Shown here piece by piece: positions 1 through 12,770 of a stretch of DNA of 12,770 nucleotides. Both the position numbers and the translations under genes were made by a program. Below the pieces are notes generated by a model. It saw only the letters and a program-made list of their open reading frames with translations, was not told where the DNA came from and did not search any database. The first letter of the stretch is position 1. Every line of letters begins with the position of its first letter. Source of the stretch: Okeania sp. (GTDB lineage Bacteria > Cyanobacteriota > Cyanobacteriia > Cyanobacteriales > Microcoleaceae). The stretch lies in contig NZ_JAYKGW010000201.1 of assembly GCF_035285525.1 (NCBI RefSeq), positions 1-12,770 of the forward strand, given 5' to 3'.

Positions 1-125
1 ACAGCCTCAGGCAAGTACACCATCTCAATCAAGGCCACAGCCTCAGGCAAGTACACCATCTCAATCAAGGCCACAGCCTCAGGCAAGTACACCATCTCAA
101 TCAAGGCCACAGCCTCAGGCAAGTC
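1..125 (+). repeat. Perfect 36-bp in-frame tandem repeat (3 full copies plus a diverging partial copy)
   Basis: ACAGCCTCAGGCAAGTACACCATCTCAATCAAGGCC occurs identically at 1-36, 37-72 and 73-108. A fourth copy starts at 109 and diverges after about 16 nt. Confidence 0.95.
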
Positions 126-4993: not shown

Positions 4994-5016
4994 AGTTATC
5001 AGTTATCAGTTATCAG
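4994..5016. repeat. STRR-type heptamer tract (AGTTATC x3 plus a partial copy)
   Basis: The tract is agttatc agttatc agttatc ag. The same heptamer recurs at 5779-5791, 7121-7133 and 9028-9037. Confidence 0.85.
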
Positions 5017-5490
5017 CTTTTTTAGTTTTTATGTTTGAACATTAGATAAAGTTATGATTTTGAAATTTTGGCTTTAATATTTTAAATTTTACTACTTTTG
5101 CGTGACTGTTAAATGGGGAAATTTTTTTGGGTTGGTTAACGAGGTTTCAAGATTTTTAGCGCTTTTTTTTGATTTTGTGATATTATAGACATAGAGTATA
5201 ATTGGAGCCTTTTATTTCTTAATTTAGTTTTATAACTGTTATTTCTTATTATGCTGTTGTTTTGGTCTGTTTTTGTCTGAATTTGCTTTGCTTAAAATGA
5301 CTTTTTTTATCTGTCCGTTTTTTGCTGTTTTGACAAAGTGTTGATTTTGTGATAGCAAAGCAGGTTTTTTCGTTTTTTTTAATTGTATTTTGTTGAATAA
5401 TTAGTCTAGAGGATGGGCAAACAAAAACCAATAATTTTATCATATCACAGTTGGCTTGAGGATGCAACCCTAATTCTCTGATCGGCGCGA
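5005..5490 (+). other. Conserved T-rich non-coding segment, copy A (paralogous to 9027-9514); it precedes tandem array A
   Basis: It aligns colinearly by eye with 9027-9514 at roughly four fifths identity. Shared blocks are ggttaacgaggtttcaa.atttttagcgcttttttt, aaaatgacttttttt, tgttttgacaaagtgtt.gttttgtgatag, ttgaataattagtctag and aggatgcaaccctaattctct.atcggcgcga. No ORF is conserved between the copies. Confidence 0.8.
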
Positions 5491-5718
5491 TTTTTTTTGG
5501 GGAGTGCTTCAGAGAATGAAAATTTTGAGTAATTAGGGAAGGTTTGATAATCAAGCGATCGCTACTTTATTTCCAGGGGTGCTTCAGAGAATGAAAATTT
5601 TGAGTAATTAGGGAAGGTTTGATGGTAGAGGAAATTTCGACTTTTCCTGAGTGAGGGTGCTTCAAAGAATGAAAATTTTGAGTAATTAGGGAAGGTTTGA
5701 TAATCAAGCGATCGCTAC
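5491..5718 (+). repeat. Modular tandem array A (3 units of 75-77 bp)
   Basis: The units are 5491-5565, 5566-5641 and 5642-5718. Each has a T-run, then the core GG(G)TGCTTCA(G/A)AGAATGAAAATTTTGAGTAATTAGGGAAGGTTTGAT. The tail is either aatcaagcgatcgctac (HIP1 module; units 1 and 3) or ggtagaggaaatttcgac (unit 2). Confidence 0.9.
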
Positions 5719-7325: not shown

Positions 7326-7904
7326 CTATGAATCAACTAATAATCCATAGGGAAGGGGATAGCTTTCTTCATCGTCACCGGTTTCAAACCAGTAGTGCAT
7401 ATGAGCTTCGACAAACTCCTCACGACTAATAGAACCTGACTTATCTGAATCAATACTATCAAAAGCTTGGTTCGCTTGTTCCGATTGCTCTACTCCAGTA
7501 TATATTGCTAGATACTTTCGGTACTCTTCACGAGATATTTCTCCAGAATGATCCGTGTCAATGATATCGAAAAAAATCTCGTTTTTATGTCTACCTGCTT
7601 GAAGTACTTCATCTGATGCTTCAGCCACAGTCTTTGCAACTTTAGTGATTAATTCTTCTTCAGTAATTTGAGTATTATCATCAACTGGTTCTCCTCCAGC
7701 TATAAAATGCTGAAACAGAGAATGACACATTTCGCGAATTTTTTCGTTCTTTGATGAATCAGTTTGCAGTCTAATTAAACGATTGGCAATTTCTTCAAAG
7801 TCGGAGAGGGTTAAAACCTCATTTTTATCGACGTCCATAAGTTTGAAGTAGGTCTTCATTTTAGCACGCCAAATACTTGATGATATAAACTTTTCAGGAG
7901 ACAT
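7326..7904 (-). CDS. EF-hand calcium-binding protein of the sarcoplasmic-calcium-binding-protein (SCP)/calerythrin type
   Basis: 192-aa ORF. The EF loops are DVDKNEVLTLSDFE (atypical, E at the Gly position), DTDHSGEISREEYRKY and DSDKSGSISREEFVEA. The N-terminal IWRAKMKTYFKLMDVDKNEVLTLSDFEEIANRL and the C-terminal WFETGDDEESYPLPYGLLV resemble, from memory, invertebrate SCP (..W.QKMKTYFNRIDFDKDG.I...DFE.MAERF ... FWGPLV). Confidence 0.85.
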   Translation of the reverse strand: MSPEKFISSSIWRAKMKTYFKLMDVDKNEVLTLSDFEEIANRLIRLQTDSSKNEKIREMCHSLFQHFIAGGEPVDDNTQITEEELITKVAKTVAEASDEVLQAGRHKNEIFFDIIDTDHSGEISREEYRKYLAIYTGVEQSEQANQAFDSIDSDKSGSISREEFVEAHMHYWFETGDDEESYPLPYGLLVDS

Positions 7905-8031
7905 TTTTATTGAAGAATAAGAAAACTACATCAACTAACTTCTTAATATCATCATAGCCTCAGAAATTTTGGATTATGTAATAAAAATTAATATTTATTG
8001 TCAGTATTCAGTAGTCAGCTATAAGCCAGGC

Positions 8032-8043
8032 TCCTCCGGAGGA
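8032..8043. promoter_or_regulatory. 12-bp perfect palindrome TCCTCCGGAGGA containing the TCCGGA (DIF1-like) hexamer, ~130 bp upstream of the EF-hand gene
   Basis: The palindrome is read directly, with TCCGGA at 8035-8040. No convincing -10 element was found at the canonical spacing, so the regulatory role is speculative. Confidence 0.2.
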
Positions 8044-8229
8044 ACTGCTTTAACAGTTATTGCTTCTAGTTTTTGATAGAAGCTTATATTATTTAGAAAT
8101 TTTATTTTAATATAAAAGCTAGTTTTCAAGTCTATATATATTAGTTTAAATATGATCTTTAAGCTTGAGGTTTCTTTTGCTAATAGCTGAGGTGCTAATA
8201 GCTGAATGCTTATAATACCTCTATAATTT

Positions 8230-9018
8230 TCACCTTGTCATAGTAGAAATAGTTTTTCCTAGTGACATTAATGTTCGTTTAAAGTTATCTGCACGACTCC
8301 GAAAATCATCACCTTTTCCTAAATCAAATGCCATTCCTTTGACTCCAGATAATAATTTTAAATAAACTTTACTTTCAGTGTCTTGAGTAGCAATAACTAA
8401 ATAAAATTGGTCTATTCCTACAGTTTGAATTTCTCTTACTACTTCCTCAATATTTTGAGTTTCTTGATCGGGAATATGTGGAGGAGCGTCTGTGATTAAA
8501 ACAATAACTTTATTACTGTCTGAATCAAAAGGTTGACGTAATGCAAACATCACTGCATCTAAACTACTTTCTGGTGCATCTCCTCCTCCATAAGCTTTTA
8601 GTTTAGATACTTCTTGACGAAAAAGATTGGGATTATTTGTAAATACTTCGCCATTAATTTTTAACACTCTATGTTCTTCATTAATTAGGCGATCACGAAA
8701 TTCTATTAAACCAACTCTAACTCTGACTCCATCTTTTTCTATAGTATCGGCAAATTCCATAATTGTTTCTTTTATGGCATTAATTTCACCCTCCATACTG
8801 CCAGTACAATCTAACACAAACATAATATCTGCTTGGCGTTTGGCTAAAATTTCTGCTGTTAGTTTTAGGGCTTCAACAAGTTCTTCTGGCGAATGACTTT
8901 TTATAGTTGGTTTTGATCTTGATGTTGTTTTTGGTTTTGTTTCTAATTCTGTACCGCATTGTTGACAGGATTTAGCGGTATCTAAATTTGAAGTTCCGCA
9001 ATTAAGGCAAGTTTTCAT
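8230..9018 (-). CDS. Zinc-ribbon plus von Willebrand factor type A (vWA) domain protein
   Basis: 262-aa ORF. The N-terminal zinc ribbon is CLNCG-x10-CQQCG. After a low-complexity linker, the vWA domain has the MIDAS motif DCTGSM (DxTGS) and a downstream VIVLITDAPPH strand. Confidence 0.88.
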   Translation of the reverse strand: MKTCLNCGTSNLDTAKSCQQCGTELETKPKTTSRSKPTIKSHSPEELVEALKLTAEILAKRQADIMFVLDCTGSMEGEINAIKETIMEFADTIEKDGVRVRVGLIEFRDRLINEEHRVLKINGEVFTNNPNLFRQEVSKLKAYGGGDAPESSLDAVMFALRQPFDSDSNKVIVLITDAPPHIPDQETQNIEEVVREIQTVGIDQFYLVIATQDTESKVYLKLLSGVKGMAFDLGKGDDFRSRADNFKRTLMSLGKTISTMTR

Positions 9019-9026
9019 TTCAGCGA

Positions 9027-9514
9027 TCAGTTATCAGCTTCTTTAGTTTTCATGTTTGAAAATTAGATAAAGTTATAGTTTTAAAATTTTGGTTTTAATA
9101 TTTTAAACTTTACCATTTTTGAGTGACTTTTCAATAGGGAAATTTTTTTGGTTTGGTTAACGAGGTTTCAATATTTTTAGCGCTTTTTTTCAATTTTGTG
9201 ATATCGTATACTTATGATATTCTTGGAGCATTTTATGTCTTGATTTAGTTTTATACCTGTTAATTCCTATTATGCCGTTATGTTGGGTTATTTTGTTCTA
9301 AATTGTCTTTGCTCAAAATGACTTTTTTTCTCTGCGCGTTTTTTTCTGTTTTGACAAAGTGTTAGTTTTGTGATAGTAGGGCATATTTTTTGTTTTTTTG
9401 GGAATTAGATTTGCATTGAATAATTAGTCTAGTTTATGAACGAGTAACACCAAGTGTTTTTATTCTACCACAGGTGCTTTCAGGATGCAACCCTAATTCT
9501 CTTATCGGCGCGAC
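9027..9514 (+). other. Conserved T-rich non-coding segment, copy B (paralogous to 5005-5490); it starts 9 bp from the vWA start codon
   Basis: It is colinear with copy A (see 5005-5490). The vWA gene (ATG at 9018, minus strand) has no upstream sequence other than this segment. Confidence 0.8.
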
Positions 9515-10032
9515 TTTTTTCAGGGGTGCTTCAGAGAATGATTGGGGGGGTAGTCAGGGAAGGTTTGATTGTCAGGCGATCGCTACTTTTTTTCAGGGGT
9601 GCTTCAGAGAATGATTGGGGGGTAGTCAGGGAAGGTTTGATTGTCAGGCGATCGCTACTTTTTTTCAGGGGTGCTTCAGAGAATGATTGGGGGGGGGTAG
9701 TCAGGGAAGGTTTGATTGTCAGGCGATCGCTACTTTTTTTCAGGGGTGCTTCAGAGAATGATTGGGGGGTAGTCAGGGAAGGTTTGATGGAAAAGGAAAT
9801 TTCGACTTTTTTCAGGGGTGCTTCAGAGAATGAAAATTTTCAGTAGTTAGGGAAGGCTTGATTGTCAGGCGATCGCTACTTTTTTTTTCAGGGGTGCTTC
9901 AGAGAATGATTGGGGGGTAGTCAAGGAAGGTTTGATGGAAAAGGAAATTTCGACTTTTTTTCAGGGGTGCTTCAGAGAATGATTTGGGGGGGGAGTAGTC
10001 AAGGAAGGTTTGATGGAAAAGGAAATTTCGAC
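9515..10032 (+). repeat. Modular tandem array B (7 units of 72-78 bp)
   Basis: Unit ends are at 9586, 9658, 9733, 9806, 9879, 9954 and 10032. The core is CAGGGGTGCTTCAGAGAATGATTGGGGGGTAGTCAGGGAAGGTTTGAT. Unit 5 keeps the array-A-like GAAAATTTTCAGTAGTTAGGG version. Tails alternate between tgtcaggcgatcgctac (units 1, 2, 3, 5) and ggaaaaggaaatttcgac (units 4, 6, 7). The G-run length differs between units (6, 7 and 9 G). Confidence 0.92.
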
Positions 10033-10191
10033 TTTTTCTTGGGGAGCAGCCAGAATCCAGAATCCAGGAGGAAGAGGAATCAGAATCACAGAAGAGCTAG
10101 CCAAAAAAATATTCCCTTAATTTTCTCCCATATCTTGCCCAAAATCCTAGAATGCATGATTTTTCGGGAACCGTACCAGAATTACCTAAAA

Positions 10192-10214
10192 GCTGGTACT
10201 CTATTAGTACCTGC
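10192..10214 (-). terminator. Candidate intrinsic terminator of the kinase-FGE gene
   Basis: The minus-strand RNA is gcaGGUACUaauagAGUACCagc followed by UUUU. The stem is 6 bp plus 2 bp with one mismatch, ~52 nt after the stop codon. The stem is AU-rich and short, so the call is weak. Confidence 0.35.
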
Positions 10215-10265
10215 AAAAGCTGAAACCAATTCTTAAACAACTGACAACTAAAAAAGACTAATTGA

Positions 10266-12368
10266 CTAGAAACGGACAGGTAAGACGACACGAAAACCCC
10301 TATTGATGCTGAACCGATCCCCACTGCTACAACTACGCCTGGCACATCGACAATCCCTAGAATAGTTGACCCAACTACCACCACGGATAACTCTGTGCAG
10401 TCTATATTTACTTTGTCCCCAAATTTCCCAAGCAGTTCCATCCGTAGGCGCTCCATTATAATTATTGTGCCAAAGATCCTGACACCATTCCCAGACATTC
10501 CCGTGCATATCATATAAACCAAAAGCATTGGGTGGAAAACGTCCCAGTGCTGTTGTTTGTTTTAGAAATTTACCTTGAGGAGCGTTACCATAAGGATAGT
10601 TACCGTCGTAGTTAACCAACTCAGGCGTTATAGTTTCTCCAAAATAAAAAGATGTAGTCGTCCCTGCACGACAAGCATATTCCCACTGACTTTCGCTAGG
10701 CAACCTGTAAATTTTCCCAGTTTTCTTGCGTAGCTTTTTACGAAAGTTTGTAGCTTCATCCCAACTCACACTTTCCACTGGGCGACTTCCTCCTTTAAAT
10801 CGAGAAGGATTATTTCCCATAATGGCTTGGTACTGGTTTTGAGTAATAGGATATTTGCTGATAAAGAAAGGTTGGAGAGTAACTTTATGTTGCAGATTTT
10901 CATCAGACTCTCTTTCAAACTCATCTTTTGGAGAGCCCATAAGAAAATTTCCCCCAGGAATATAAACCATTTCCAATACCACCTTCTCATCTAAATATTC
11001 TCTAAAAAATTCTGCTTCCTGGCGACGGCGACTAATTTCTTGTCCTTGGGAGTTGACCTTTATTACCTCAAAGCTAAATTTATCCGGTATTACTCCTTTA
11101 GGAAAGGGAGATTTTTTTTCAGAAGTCTCTTTTGGCATCCTCTCTTTAGGAGGTAAAGGTAACGGCTTTAGTGGTTTTGTGGGAAAGGGAGATGTTTCTT
11201 CTAGCTTCTCACTTCTATTTCCCAAGTCTTTCAGAAAATTTATAAATTGCGATATTTTTGTTTCTGACTCCTGAATGCTGGTTTCTGACTCCTGAATGTT
11301 GGTTTCTGACTCCTGAATGTTAGTTTCTGACTCCTGAATGTTAGTTTCTAACTCCTGAATGCTGGTTTCTAACTCCTGAATGTTGGTTTCTAACTCCTCA
11401 CTTCTGACTTTTGACTTTTGACTTTTGAATTGTATCTTCCACCATTCCTGAATATTTCCAGGACGACCTTCCTGCTCAAAAACCAAAGCCGACATTACCA
11501 ACTCTTGCCAAGGAGACTCTAAATCTTCTGGTTGCCAACCTTTTTGTTTTGATAAACGTTGCAAAGCATTAGGAGGTAACTGCCCAGTCAACATTTCATA
11601 AACCATCATCCCCACTTCAAAAATATCGCTCTCTACTCCCACTTCTCCTCCCCCAATAACTTCTGGTGCGGCATAAGCTTCCGTAAAAGTCCGAGTACTA
11701 GAAGTACTCATAGAAGTTCCGAAGGTTTGTTTTGCCGAACCAAAGTCGATCAATACTAACCGCCCTTCTGGGGTAAGTAAGATATTGTCGGGTTTTATAT
11801 CCAAGTGAAAAATTCCTTGTTGATGTACTGCGGATAATGCTAAGACGAGAGGAGAGATTATTTCTGCGATTTTCTCAGGGGAAAATTTTTTCTGAGGTTG
11901 AGAGTCTAATTCTGTTCTGAGAGTTTTTCCCGTGACTAACTCCATGACTAGATAGGCCGTATCATTTTCCTCAAATAAATCTTTTACTCTTACCACATGA
12001 GGGTGATCGAGTTTTGCTAATATTTGTCCTTCCCGGAGAAACCTTTGCAAACCCCGTTGAAATATTTCCTGTTGATTTTTGGGGATGGTAAAACCGCCAG
12101 TGGTAGGGTGGCGGAAAGCGTGGTTTTGGGGATAATATTCTTTGATGGCGACTGTTTTTTGTAATGATTTATGATACCCCTGATAAGTTACGCCAAACCC
12201 TCCTCGACCCAGGGCGTAGTTTATTTGGTACTTATTGCCATGAAGTTTCCTACCTGATGCAAGTAGATCGCGGGTGAGTGATGGTAGGTATGCGCCACAG
12301 TTGGGGCATAGTTTTGTGTTTAGTGGAAGACCGTCAGTATAGCAACCTGAGTTTAAGCAACGCATCAT
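10266..12368 (-). CDS. Multidomain protein: N-terminal zinc ribbon, Ser/Thr protein kinase, heptad-repeat/Pro-rich linker, and a C-terminal FGE/SUMF1-type (formylglycine-generating enzyme fold, C-type-lectin-like) domain
   Basis: 700-aa ORF. The zinc ribbon is C-x4-C-x11-C-x2-C at the N-terminus. Kinase motifs are GRGGFGVTY, VAIKEY, HLDIKPDNILL, DFGSAK and APE. The linker is (ETNIQEL/S)n followed by PFPTKPLKPLPLPPK. The FGE domain has YIPGGNFLMGSP, RLPSESQWEYACRAG, GLYDMHGNVWEWCQD and RGGSW...GFRVV. Confidence 0.92.
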   Translation of the reverse strand: MMRCLNSGCYTDGLPLNTKLCPNCGAYLPSLTRDLLASGRKLHGNKYQINYALGRGGFGVTYQGYHKSLQKTVAIKEYYPQNHAFRHPTTGGFTIPKNQQEIFQRGLQRFLREGQILAKLDHPHVVRVKDLFEENDTAYLVMELVTGKTLRTELDSQPQKKFSPEKIAEIISPLVLALSAVHQQGIFHLDIKPDNILLTPEGRLVLIDFGSAKQTFGTSMSTSSTRTFTEAYAAPEVIGGGEVGVESDIFEVGMMVYEMLTGQLPPNALQRLSKQKGWQPEDLESPWQELVMSALVFEQEGRPGNIQEWWKIQFKSQKSKVRSEELETNIQELETSIQELETNIQESETNIQESETNIQESETSIQESETKISQFINFLKDLGNRSEKLEETSPFPTKPLKPLPLPPKERMPKETSEKKSPFPKGVIPDKFSFEVIKVNSQGQEISRRRQEAEFFREYLDEKVVLEMVYIPGGNFLMGSPKDEFERESDENLQHKVTLQPFFISKYPITQNQYQAIMGNNPSRFKGGSRPVESVSWDEATNFRKKLRKKTGKIYRLPSESQWEYACRAGTTTSFYFGETITPELVNYDGNYPYGNAPQGKFLKQTTALGRFPPNAFGLYDMHGNVWEWCQDLWHNNYNGAPTDGTAWEIWGQSKYRLHRVIRGGSWVNYSRDCRCARRSCSSGDRFSINRGFRVVLPVRF
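11260..11400 (-). repeat. In-frame 21-bp tandem repeat (6 full plus 1 partial copy) inside the kinase-FGE gene
   Basis: GTTTCTGACTCCTGAATG(C/T)T(G/A) recurs every 21 bp from 11260, and the last three copies have GTTTCTAAC. It encodes ELETNIQ/ESETNIQ heptads. It is followed by the heptamers cttctga cttttga cttttga cttttga at 11401-11428. Confidence 0.95.
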
Positions 12369-12454: not shown

Positions 12455-12770
12455 TTGTCTATTTACCTGAGAATTTTTCATTTTCTGAAGCACCCGAATT
12501 TAAGAAGTGGTTGCCTGAGCGATCGCCTCCTTGTCTATATTACCTGAGAATTTTTCATTTTCTGAAGCACCCGAAATTGAGAAGTAGTGTTTTGACTCGG
12601 AAAAATCCTTCTATTTACCTGAGAATTTTTCATTTTCTGAAGCACCCGAATTTAAGAAGTGGTTGCCTGAGCGATCGCCTCCTTGTCTATATTACCTGAG
12701 AATTTTTCATTCTGTGAAGCACCCGAAATTGAGAAGTAGTGTTTTGACTCGGAAAAATCCTTCTATTTAC
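12455..12770 (-). repeat. Modular tandem array C (at least 4 units; inverted relative to arrays A/B; truncated by the window end)
   Basis: The reverse complement of the core is CGGGTGCTTCAGAAAATGAAAAATTCTCAGGTAA, matching the array A/B core GGTGCTTCAGARAATGAAAA. Tails alternate between a HIP1 module (cctgagcgatcgcctcc) and ttttgactcggaaaaatcc. The 152-bp double units 12459-12610 and 12611-12762 differ at only 2 positions. Confidence 0.9.

What the first reader, a model, noticed from the sequence alone, without database searches (positions are those of the whole stretch)
10299..10370. C-terminal tract of the FGE domain looks like a DGR variable region (no TR or RT in the window)
Between the conserved GGSW and GFRVV motifs the protein reads VNYSRDCRCARRSCSSGDRFSINR. 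As I remember it, related non-diversified cyanobacterial FGE-domain proteins are Asn-rich here (roughly NNNPRNCRSA.RNRNNPDNRNNNI). At those positions this gene uses mostly NNY codons reachable from AAY by changing only adenines: gtc, aac, tat, tct, gat, tgt, agt, tgt, agc, agt, ttc, agc, atc, aat. FGE/C-type-lectin-fold C-termini, including kinase fusions, are established DGR targets in cyanobacteria, and targets can lie far from the reverse transcriptase. I searched this window by eye for an A-rich near-copy (template repeat) and found none.
Basis: partly seen in the sequence, partly recalled or inferred. Interest (0 to 1): 0.6.

Follow-up and report, generated by a model that had tools for sequence, protein, structure and literature searches.

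The report
Orphaned DGR variable region in kinase gene
The end of this cyanobacterial kinase gene was once rewritten by a diversity-generating retroelement, a well-known system in this group, but its template and reverse transcriptase are not on this contig and the site is probably no longer targeted.

Summary
Gene 10266-12368 (-) encodes a zinc-ribbon/Ser-Thr kinase/FGE-sulfatase protein ending GGSWVNYSRDCRCARRSCSSGDRFSINRGFRVVLPVRF*.

The window is a whole 12.77-kb contig of an Okeania sp. MAG. It holds no template repeat (TR), Avd or reverse transcriptase.

Five real TRs from related genomes (Okeania SIO2C9, two TRs; Okeania SIO3B3; Dapis; a Microcoleaceae MAG) align to window 10275-10387 without gaps, codon for codon. 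They encode GGSWNNNSRNCR(C/S)ARRNNNNADN(F/L)NNNRGFR. The window differs at 12 of 28 always-adenine columns against 7 of 80 never-adenine columns. At AAY codons, positions 1-2 are scrambled while the third base is kept. So a DGR wrote this tract.

Whether it is still diversified is not shown, and several results suggest it is not:
- No cognate TR was found.
- No RT or TR-ORF from this MAG is among the database clusters examined.
- The 3' tail that is identical between cognate VR/TR pairs carries substitutions and a 3-nt deletion here.
- The conserved downstream flank is missing.
- The closest homologue (Okeania SIO3I5) has a dead DGR cassette immediately downstream, where this contig has only 215 nt and a repeat array.

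Kinase-FGE DGR targets, including decayed ones, are already described in Trichodesmium. Interest is low.

The parts
10266..12368 (-). Intact 700-aa gene: N-terminal zinc ribbon, Hanks-type Ser/Thr kinase, heptad-repeat linker, C-terminal FGE-sulfatase (C-type-lectin-fold) domain. GenBank MEB3342814.1 / WP_324238244.1, Okeania sp. MAG.
11562..12230 (-). Protein kinase domain (residues 47-269)
   Evidence: Pfam PF00069, E=7.3e-47
11260..11398 (-). 21-nt x 6.6 in-frame tandem repeat encoding ETNIQE(L/S) heptads (linker). The closest homologue, in Okeania SIO3I5, lacks it.
10284..10973 (-). FGE-sulfatase domain (residues 466-695). Related to PvdO, FGEs and the DGR variable protein TvpA (PDB 2Y3C).
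   Evidence: Pfam PF03781, E=2.2e-54; PDB sequence search: 5hha 5e-40, 2y3c 2.4e-21
10266..10387 (-). Variable-region homologue: the stretch that aligns ungapped to the TRs of Okeania SIO2C9 and SIO3B3, Dapis and a Microcoleaceae MAG (76% identity over 113 nt to the best three of the five TRs).
10299..10370 (-). It holds the 11-12 codons that are AAY in the TRs (here V N Y D S C S S R S I N), interleaved with TR-templated scaffold codons (S, R, C-R-C-A-R-R, G-D, F, R).
   Evidence: codon table; position statistics
10266..10298 (-). 3' tail GFRVVLPVRF* of the short, TR1-type class. Against the TR tails it has 3-5 substitutions and a 3-nt deletion. In cognate VR/TR pairs this stretch is identical up to the stop codon.
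10051..10265 (-). 215-nt spacer after the stop codon. It has no GATTCTTCC motif and no CT-rich tract (conserved after six of seven related VRs), no TR stub and no RT remnant. Only a weak 9-nt inverted repeat lies at 10192-10214.
9515..10014 (.). 72-nt x 6.8 tandem-repeat array containing HIP1 (GCGATCGC). The same repeat family directly follows the RT or RT remnant in L018 and L001, where TR2 lies in SIO2C9.
9028..9614 (.). Copy of a dispersed element of about 500-700 nt, in the same order and orientation relative to the kinase-FGE gene as in Okeania SIO3I5 (L001 12988-13483). A second copy lies at window 4996-5702.

Best explanation
The C-terminal tract is a genuine DGR variable region. At some point it was overwritten by cDNA copied, with adenine-specific errors, from an AAY-rich template repeat of the DGR lineage shared by Okeania, Trichodesmium and Dapis. 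This scrambled the ligand-binding face of the FGE/C-type-lectin domain of a Ser/Thr kinase. On this contig the VR is orphaned: there is no TR, Avd or RT. The 3' homing stretch and its downstream flank have drifted, and the place where related strains carry the cassette holds only 215 nt followed by a repeat array. The most likely state is therefore a frozen, formerly diversified allele in an intact and presumably functional kinase gene, not an active target. Shown: homology to real TRs, the adenine-biased pattern, absence of the cassette from the contig, and the mutated tail. Inferred: the VR is no longer targeted.
For: 1. Real cassettes exist in relatives. Okeania sp. SIO2C9 carries VR end - TR1 - bAvd (PF22296, E=9e-21) - RT (PF00078, E=1e-22) - TR2. 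Dapis and Okeania SIO3B3 have adjacent VR/TR pairs with 15/0 and 15/1 mismatches at adenine/non-adenine template positions.
2. Window 10275-10387 aligns ungapped to five TRs. It differs from every TR at 12 of 28 columns that are A in all TRs, against 7 of 80 columns that are never A (p=1.7e-4).
3. At the 11 AAY codons, positions 1-2 changed at 11 of 22 sites and position 3 at 2 of 11. At scaffold codons the figures are 6 of 52 and 8 of 26, the reverse of ordinary drift.
4. Against the closest homologue (SIO3I5, 82-84% DNA identity), identity per 90-column window is 0.78-0.96 across the FGE domain and drops to 0.69 and 0.39 over the last ~150 nt. Within the VR block, 19 of 28 adenine columns differ against 18 of 85 others (p=1e-5).
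5. Signs of orphaning:
- There is no TR, RT or Avd in the window.
- A VR-derived pattern found no TR or sibling VR in the genome or JGI metagenome collections.
- The four RT clusters at 87-95% identity to the SIO2C9 RT, and the TR-ORF search, contain nothing from this MAG.
- The tail has substitutions plus a 3-nt deletion seen in none of the TR tails or related VR tails compared.
- The conserved GATTCTTCC plus CT-rich flank is missing.
- SIO3I5 has a dead cassette right after its copy of the gene: a TR stub, then RT residues 233-345 only. This is followed by the same repeat array and dispersed element that here begin 215 nt after the stop codon.
6. Pfreundt et al. 2014 (PMC4143802) describe the same situation in Trichodesmium: 12 mostly kinase-DUF323/FGE targets, some judged no longer targeted because of point mutations in the 35-bp 3' conserved stretch, and an RT pseudogene.
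Against: The rest of the MAG could not be searched, and DGR cassettes are often lost from fragmented MAGs. TRs of different strains differ from one another at 6-17 of 113 positions. The 7-13 non-adenine differences seen here would therefore also be expected if the genome had its own, unsampled TR carrying the same silent variants and tail deletion. Remote targets are common in cyanobacteria: 76 remote variable proteins in 21 genomes (PMC7517822). Orthology with the SIO3I5 gene rests on only slightly higher identity than to paralogues (82-84% vs 79-80%) and on downstream elements that are themselves dispersed repeats. The gene is intact, so nothing shows decay of the protein.
Confidence: 0.6

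Rival explanations
1. Active remote target. The genome carries an intact DGR cassette on another, unbinned or unsampled contig. Its TR matches this VR at all non-adenine positions, and the tract is still being rewritten in trans.
For: Remote kinase-CLec targets are common in cyanobacteria (PMC7517822; 12 targets in Trichodesmium, PMC4143802). Okeania SIO3I5 has at least three such genes with no RT within 10 kb. The number of non-adenine differences from foreign TRs (7-13) lies within TR-to-TR divergence between strains (6-17 per 113 nt). Ten of the 12 AAY-position codons are non-Asn, and the gene is intact.
Against: No cognate TR, RT or TR-ORF was found. The tail deletion and substitutions fall in the stretch that is invariant between cognate pairs, and the conserved downstream flank is absent. 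Two differences are non-synonymous and cannot arise by adenine changes from any known TR: GCC to GGG, and AAC to CGG. The closest homologue's locus shows cassette decay.
Confidence: 0.33
2. Not DGR-related. The tract is simply the fast-evolving C-terminal loop of an FGE-family domain, and the NNY codon bias is coincidental.
For: Only the lack of a TR or RT on the contig. The background NNY frequency is already 47%.
Against: There is 76% ungapped DNA identity over 113 nt to non-coding TRs that sit next to Avd and RT. Changes are enriched at template adenines. The codon-position pattern is inverted: positions 1-2 changed far more than position 3 only at the AAY codons. The short-tail class is shared with TR1 of SIO2C9.
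Confidence: 0.04

Closest known systems
Trichodesmium erythraeum IMS101 DGR and its 12 DUF323/FGE-domain targets, mostly kinase fusions (Pfreundt et al. 2014, PMC4143802)
   Same: Same RT lineage: the Trichodesmium RT clusters are 87-90% identical to the Okeania SIO2C9 RT. Same target architecture (Ser/Thr kinase plus C-terminal FGE domain), VR in the last ~40 codons, and many dispersed targets. Some VRs there were judged no longer targeted because of mutations in the 3' conserved stretch, and the RT is a pseudogene in the cultured strain.
   Different: This is a different genus, and only one contig is available. Here the cassette is absent rather than point-inactivated. The tail belongs to the short (TR1-type) class and has a private 3-nt deletion.
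Cyanobacterial DGR-internal and remote variable proteins (Vallota-Eastman et al. 2020, PMC7517822)
   Same: STK-CLec fusions are the commonest targets, with the VR at the 3' terminus. Genomes hold many CLec paralogues with graded VR/TR homology, and transposable elements are often found nearby.
   Different: That survey did not include Okeania (0 mentions). Here, classing the gene as a 'remote VP' or a 'VP homologue' cannot be done without the genome's own TR.
Okeania sp. SIO2C9 DGR cassette (NZ_JAAHGO010000010.1; RT NEQ73315.1)
   Same: This is among the closest available templates. TR1 encodes GGSWNNNSRNCRCARRNNNNADNFNNNRGFRIVLPVSRS*. It shares the CRCA motif, the TTC codon and the short LPV..R tail with the window gene.
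   Different: It is not cognate: 13 non-adenine mismatches in 113 nt, and it belongs to another genome.
Treponema denticola TvpA (PDB 2Y3C) and Bordetella phage Mtd, the structural paradigms of DGR variable proteins
   Same: FGE-type C-type-lectin fold with the variable residues in the C-terminal segment. Sequence match to 2Y3C, E=2.4e-21.
   Different: Those are surface or receptor-binding proteins. This one is an apparently cytoplasmic kinase fusion.

Membership tests
DGR variable region / target gene | VR lies at the 3' end of a gene encoding a C-type-lectin/FGE-fold domain | tested here: met
   PF03781 covers residues 466-695 (E=2e-54). PDB matches include the DGR protein TvpA, 2Y3C. The tract occupies codons 659-682 of 700.
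DGR variable region / target gene | DNA-level homology to a template repeat, with substitutions concentrated at template adenines (AAY codons: positions 1-2 changed, third base kept) | tested here: met
   Five TRs align ungapped. 12/28 all-A columns differ against 7/80 never-A columns (p=1.7e-4). AAY codons: positions 1-2 changed 11/22, position 3 changed 2/11; scaffold codons 6/52 and 8/26. The TRs are from other genomes.
DGR variable region / target gene | A cognate TR in the same genome that differs from the VR only at adenines | not testable with these tools
   There is none in the window. The MAG's other contigs are not in the searchable collections: the VR-derived pattern did not even recover the window itself, and exact-protein look-ups fail. 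Controls show what a cognate pair looks like: 15/0 and 15/1. The best foreign TRs give 14/13.
DGR variable region / target gene | DGR-type reverse transcriptase (with or without Avd) in the same genome | tested here: inconclusive
   None in the window (tblastn). Among the four RT clusters at 87-95% identity to the SIO2C9 RT, no named member comes from this MAG. No TR-ORF from it either. The MAG is fragmented, so absence is not proven.
DGR variable region / target gene | Conserved 3' stretch (IMH-like) identical to the TR end, with the lineage's conserved downstream flank | tested here: not met
   Cognate pairs are identical from GGGGTTTTCG to the stop codon, and their VRs continue with GATTCTTCC and a CT-rich tract. 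The window has 3-5 substitutions plus a 3-nt deletion in that stretch and lacks the flank. Caveat: the comparison is with foreign TRs.
DGR variable region / target gene | Variation among orthologues or strains confined to the VR | tested here: inconclusive
   No relative closer than about 83% DNA identity exists in the databases. Against that relative, identity falls from 0.78-0.96 to 0.69 and 0.39 in the last ~150 nt, and differences are enriched at adenine columns (p=1e-5). Background divergence is too high to show recent activity.
Hanks-type Ser/Thr protein kinase | Protein kinase catalytic domain | tested here: met
   PF00069, residues 47-269, E=7e-47.
Catalytic formylglycine-generating enzyme (SUMF1) | Catalytic Cys pair / copper site and sulfatase-maturing activity | not tested
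   Only domain-level homology was shown. The region that carries the catalytic cysteines in FGEs is the variable tract here, so an enzymatic role is not assumed.

The most novel reading that the evidence does not exclude
The loss of the DGR cassette may not be random. A HIP1-bearing 72-77-nt tandem-repeat array, with its associated 500-700-nt dispersed element, follows the RT or RT remnant in two other Okeania-like loci (L018, L001), where TR2 lies in SIO2C9. Here it sits 215 nt after the VR and again upstream of the gene. A piece of the element also lies inside intact cassettes, between TR1 and avd. The element might recurrently invade and erode DGR cassettes, or be derived from them, leaving orphaned VRs such as this one.
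Probability: 0.15. Interest if true: 0.4.

Novelty: new member of a known kind. Interest (0 to 1): 0.2.

Why it matters
This adds an Okeania example to the known set of cyanobacterial kinase-FGE proteins whose sensor face is written by a DGR. Together with the related loci, it illustrates stages of DGR decay: an intact two-TR cassette, a cassette lacking TR2, a truncated RT, a dead stub, and no cassette at all. Practically, an Asn-poor, NNY-rich tail between GGSW and GFRV in cyanobacterial FGE domains reliably marks past DGR action. It does not by itself show current hypermutation. It does not change understanding of DGRs.

Tried and rejected
- **TR inside the window:** an exhaustive mismatch scan found none.
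- **Exact-protein look-up of the gene to reach the source assembly:** not on record.
- **VR-derived degenerate pattern** (N at variable positions, A-or-VR-base elsewhere): 0 hits in genome contigs and in metagenome contigs, so the MAG is not in those collections and no consistent TR or sibling VR exists there.
- **Generic Asn-codon TR pattern:**
  - Viral contigs gave 0 hits.
  - JGI metagenomes gave 16 hits, none from the Okeania lineage.
  - Genome contigs gave the useful Okeania SIO2C9, Dapis and Moorena loci.
- **RT of the same MAG:** searched through RT homologues and cluster listings, not found.
- **TR of the same MAG:** searched through the spurious 'MGLTNQSS...' ORF that GenBank annotates over TRs. 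This found SIO3B3 and two others, but not this MAG.
- **RT contigs L018 and L019:** they carry no TR downstream.
- **Rfam:** no match in the window.
- **Cruciform after the VR:** only a weak 9-nt inverted repeat about 50 nt downstream.
- **Structure prediction:** judged unnecessary, because domain identity is clear from Pfam and PDB sequence matches.
- **Downstream repeat and element as proof of synteny:** rejected as proof, because the element is dispersed (two copies in the window alone). I use it only as supporting evidence.
Full report
**1. What is in the window**

ORF 10266-12368 on the minus strand encodes a 700-aa protein. Its parts are:
- an N-terminal zinc ribbon;
- a protein kinase domain (PF00069, residues 47-269, E=7e-47);
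- a run of ETNIQE(L/S) heptads, encoded by a 21-nt tandem repeat at 11260-11398;
- a C-terminal FGE-sulfatase domain (PF03781, residues 466-695, E=2e-54).

The protein ends ...RGGSWVNYSRDCRCARRSCSSGDRFSINRGFRVVLPVRF*.

The window is the complete 12,770-bp contig of an Okeania sp. MAG (MEB3342814.1 / WP_324238244.1, taxid 3100323). The other genes on the contig are a MORN-repeat protein, Fpg, an EF-hand protein and a zinc-ribbon/VWA protein. No Avd or RT is present (tblastn). No TR-like copy is present either: the best non-self match has 28-33 mismatches per 60 nt.

**2. Finding real templates**

The MAG's other contigs could not be reached. Exact-protein look-ups failed. A degenerate pattern derived from the VR gave no hit in the genome or JGI metagenome collections. 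That pattern would match the VR itself, any TR consistent with it, and sibling VRs.

A generic Asn-codon pattern (TGG AAY AAY AAY TCN ARR AAY TGY CG) found 13 loci among species-representative genomes. Among them:
- **Okeania sp. SIO2C9 (L014).** The layout is the end of a VR, TR1, bAvd (PF22296, E=9e-21), RT (PF00078, E=1e-22) and TR2.
- **Dapis sp. BLCC-M126 (L006).** It has an adjacent VR/TR pair.

Further TRs came from a Microcoleaceae MAG (L020) and from Okeania sp. SIO3B3 (L038). The SIO3B3 one was found through the spurious 56-61-aa ORF 'MGLTNQSS...' that GenBank annotates across TRs.

In the VR reading frame these TRs encode GGSWNNNSRNCR(C/S)ARRN(N/Y)NNADN(F/L/H)NNNRGFR(I/V)V...

**3. 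Is the tract DGR-written?**

Window 10275-10387 aligns without gaps, codon for codon, to all five TRs. Identity to the best three is 76% over 113 nt.

| Comparison | Mismatches at TR adenines | Mismatches at non-adenines | p |
|---|---|---|---|
| Dapis VR vs its own TR (control) | 15 | 0 | 9e-11 |
| SIO3B3 VR vs its own TR (control) | 15 | 1 | 1e-9 |
| Window VR vs best foreign TRs | 14 of 30 | 13 of 83 | 1e-3 |
| Window VR vs all five TRs jointly | 12 of 28 (columns always A) | 7 of 80 (columns never A) | 1.7e-4 |

The codon-position pattern is the more telling result:

| Codon class | Positions 1-2 changed | Position 3 changed |
|---|---|---|
| 11 codons that are AAY in most TRs | 11 of 22 | 2 of 11 |
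| 26 scaffold codons | 6 of 52 | 8 of 26 |

The AAY codons show the inverse of ordinary drift, which is what adenine-specific mutagenesis of AAY codons produces.

At the AAY positions (plus codon 19, which is AAT, AAC or TAT in the TRs) the window reads V N Y D S C S S R S I N. The scaffold residues S, R, C-R-C-A-R-R, D, F, R and GFRV are those templated by the TRs.

The tail LPVRF* belongs to the short class of SIO2C9 TR1 (LPVSRS*), not the long class of TR2 (SSSPVVSAFRS*).

Across more than 100 cyanobacterial kinase-FGE homologues, the same positions vary inside a fixed frame GGSW...CR(S/C)A.R...GFR.

I conclude, with about 95% confidence, that a DGR wrote this tract.

**4. Is it still being diversified?**

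This could not be decided, because the genome's own TR is unavailable. TRs of different strains differ from each other at 6-17 of 113 positions. Differing from foreign TRs at 7-13 non-adenine positions is therefore not informative on its own.

Several observations point to an orphaned site:

- **(a) Mutated 3' stretch.** In every cognate pair, and in the SIO2C9 VR end, VR and TR are identical from GGGGTTTTCG to the stop codon (about 38 nt). The window has 3-5 substitutions there, plus a 3-nt deletion seen in none of the TR tails or related VR tails compared.
- **(b) Missing downstream flank.** Six of seven related VRs continue after the stop with GATTCTTCC and a 60-80-nt CT-rich tract. These include cassette-adjacent ones and the two remote ones in SIO3I5. 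The window does not have this flank.
- **(d) Dead cassette at the closest homologue's locus.**
  - The closest homologue at DNA level is the P0005 gene of Okeania sp. SIO3I5, at 82-84% identity against 79-80% for paralogues.
  - Immediately downstream, that gene has a dead cassette. It consists of the CT-rich tract, a 40-nt TR stub, and only RT residues 233-345. A 72-75-nt tandem-repeat array and a ~500-nt dispersed element follow.
  - In the window the same array (9515-10014) and element (9028-9614) follow the gene in the same order and orientation. Only 215 nt of unrelated sequence lie between the stop codon and the array.
  - The SIO3I5 gene is also frameshifted.
- **(e) Nothing from this MAG in the protein database.** Among the four RT clusters at 87-95% identity to the SIO2C9 RT, no named member comes from this MAG. 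The same holds for the TR-ORF hits.

Arguments on the other side:
- The MAG is fragmented.
- Repeated DGR parts assemble badly.
- Remote targets are frequent in cyanobacteria (PMC7517822).
- The gene itself is intact.

I put the orphan or frozen reading at about 0.6 and an active remote target at about 0.33.

**5. Comparison with what is known**

- Pfreundt et al. 2014 (PMC4143802) described a DGR in the sister genus Trichodesmium with 12 targets carrying a C-terminal DUF323/FGE domain, mostly kinase fusions. [quoted passage not shown] The RT is a pseudogene in the cultured strain.
- Vallota-Eastman et al. 2020 (PMC7517822) showed that STK-CLec fusions are the commonest cyanobacterial DGR targets. 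They found many remote targets and non-diversified paralogues.
- Doré et al. 2024 (PMC10907252) place these DGRs in a clade of multicellular cyanobacteria.
- The FGE domain matches the DGR variable protein TvpA, PDB 2Y3C (E=2.4e-21).

The finding is therefore a new member of a well-described kind. The probable mechanism is also the known one:
1. A TR RNA is reverse-transcribed by the RT-Avd complex, with misincorporation opposite adenines.
2. The cDNA replaces the VR.
3. This changes the ligand-binding surface of the CLec/FGE domain, which presumably gates or directs the kinase.

**6. Verdict**

DGR origin is well supported, and current activity is unproven and somewhat disfavoured.
- Novelty is low, and interest is about 0.2.
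- The side observations may merit a brief look: a two-TR Okeania cassette, apparent stepwise decay of the cassette, and a repeat element associated with it.

Noticed in passing
window 9515-10014 and 12455-12770: Two tandem-repeat arrays (72-nt x 6.8 and 77-nt x 3.7) share the core TTCTCTGAAGCACCC and the HIP1 palindrome GCGATCGC. They flank the kinase-FGE gene in opposite orientations. The same repeat family directly follows the RT in L018 (1116-1325) and the RT remnant in L001 (12136-12627), where TR2 lies in SIO2C9.
   Followed up: partly
window 4996-5702 and 9028-9614: Two copies of a dispersed non-coding element of about 500-700 nt, ~79% identical to L018:1116-1816 and L001:12984-13483. 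A 120-150-nt piece of it also lies inside DGR cassettes between TR1 and avd (L014:743-900, L020:673-800, L006:7874-8000). No Rfam match.
   Followed up: partly
L014 1-2640 (Okeania sp. SIO2C9, NZ_JAAHGO010000010.1): An intact DGR cassette with two template repeats flanking avd-RT. TR1 has the short tail LPVSRS*, and TR2 has the long tail SSSPVVSAFRS*. The two tail classes recur among Okeania VRs.
   Followed up: partly
L001 9630-12133 (Okeania sp. SIO3I5, JAAHHT010000066.1): A dead DGR cassette: a 40-nt TR stub joined directly to RT residues 233-345, with avd and two thirds of the RT deleted. The adjacent kinase-FGE gene is frameshifted near codon 107, so its annotation (P0005, 538 aa) starts late.
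   Followed up: yes
L014 2457-2633, L038 424-594, L006 7046-7216: GenBank annotates a spurious 56-61-aa 'hypothetical protein' (MGLT(N/K)QSSV.VAGTTILGI...) across the TRs, in the +1 frame. This ORF is a convenient protein-level handle for finding TRs of this DGR lineage.
   Followed up: yes
L038 163-275 vs 445-557 (Okeania sp. SIO3B3): A cognate VR/TR pair with 15 adenine mismatches and one non-adenine mismatch (TGT to TTT, the conserved Cys of the CR motif replaced by Phe). The TR is followed by an RRXRR-domain gene instead of avd.
   Followed up: no
window 11260-11398: An in-frame 21-nt x 6.6 tandem repeat (94% matches) encodes ETNIQE(L/S) heptads between the kinase and FGE domains. It is absent from the closest homologue: the alignment has a gap over window ~11238-11417.
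   Followed up: partly
window 1-124: A perfect 36-nt x 3.4 tandem repeat at the very start of the contig. It may be part of a gene that runs off the end, or an assembly boundary.
   Followed up: no
window 7326-9018: A zinc-ribbon/VWA protein (8230-9018, -) and an EF-hand protein (7326-7904, -) lie just downstream of the kinase-FGE gene. VWA partners are common around cyanobacterial DGR targets according to PMC10907252, but no link was tested here.
   Followed up: no
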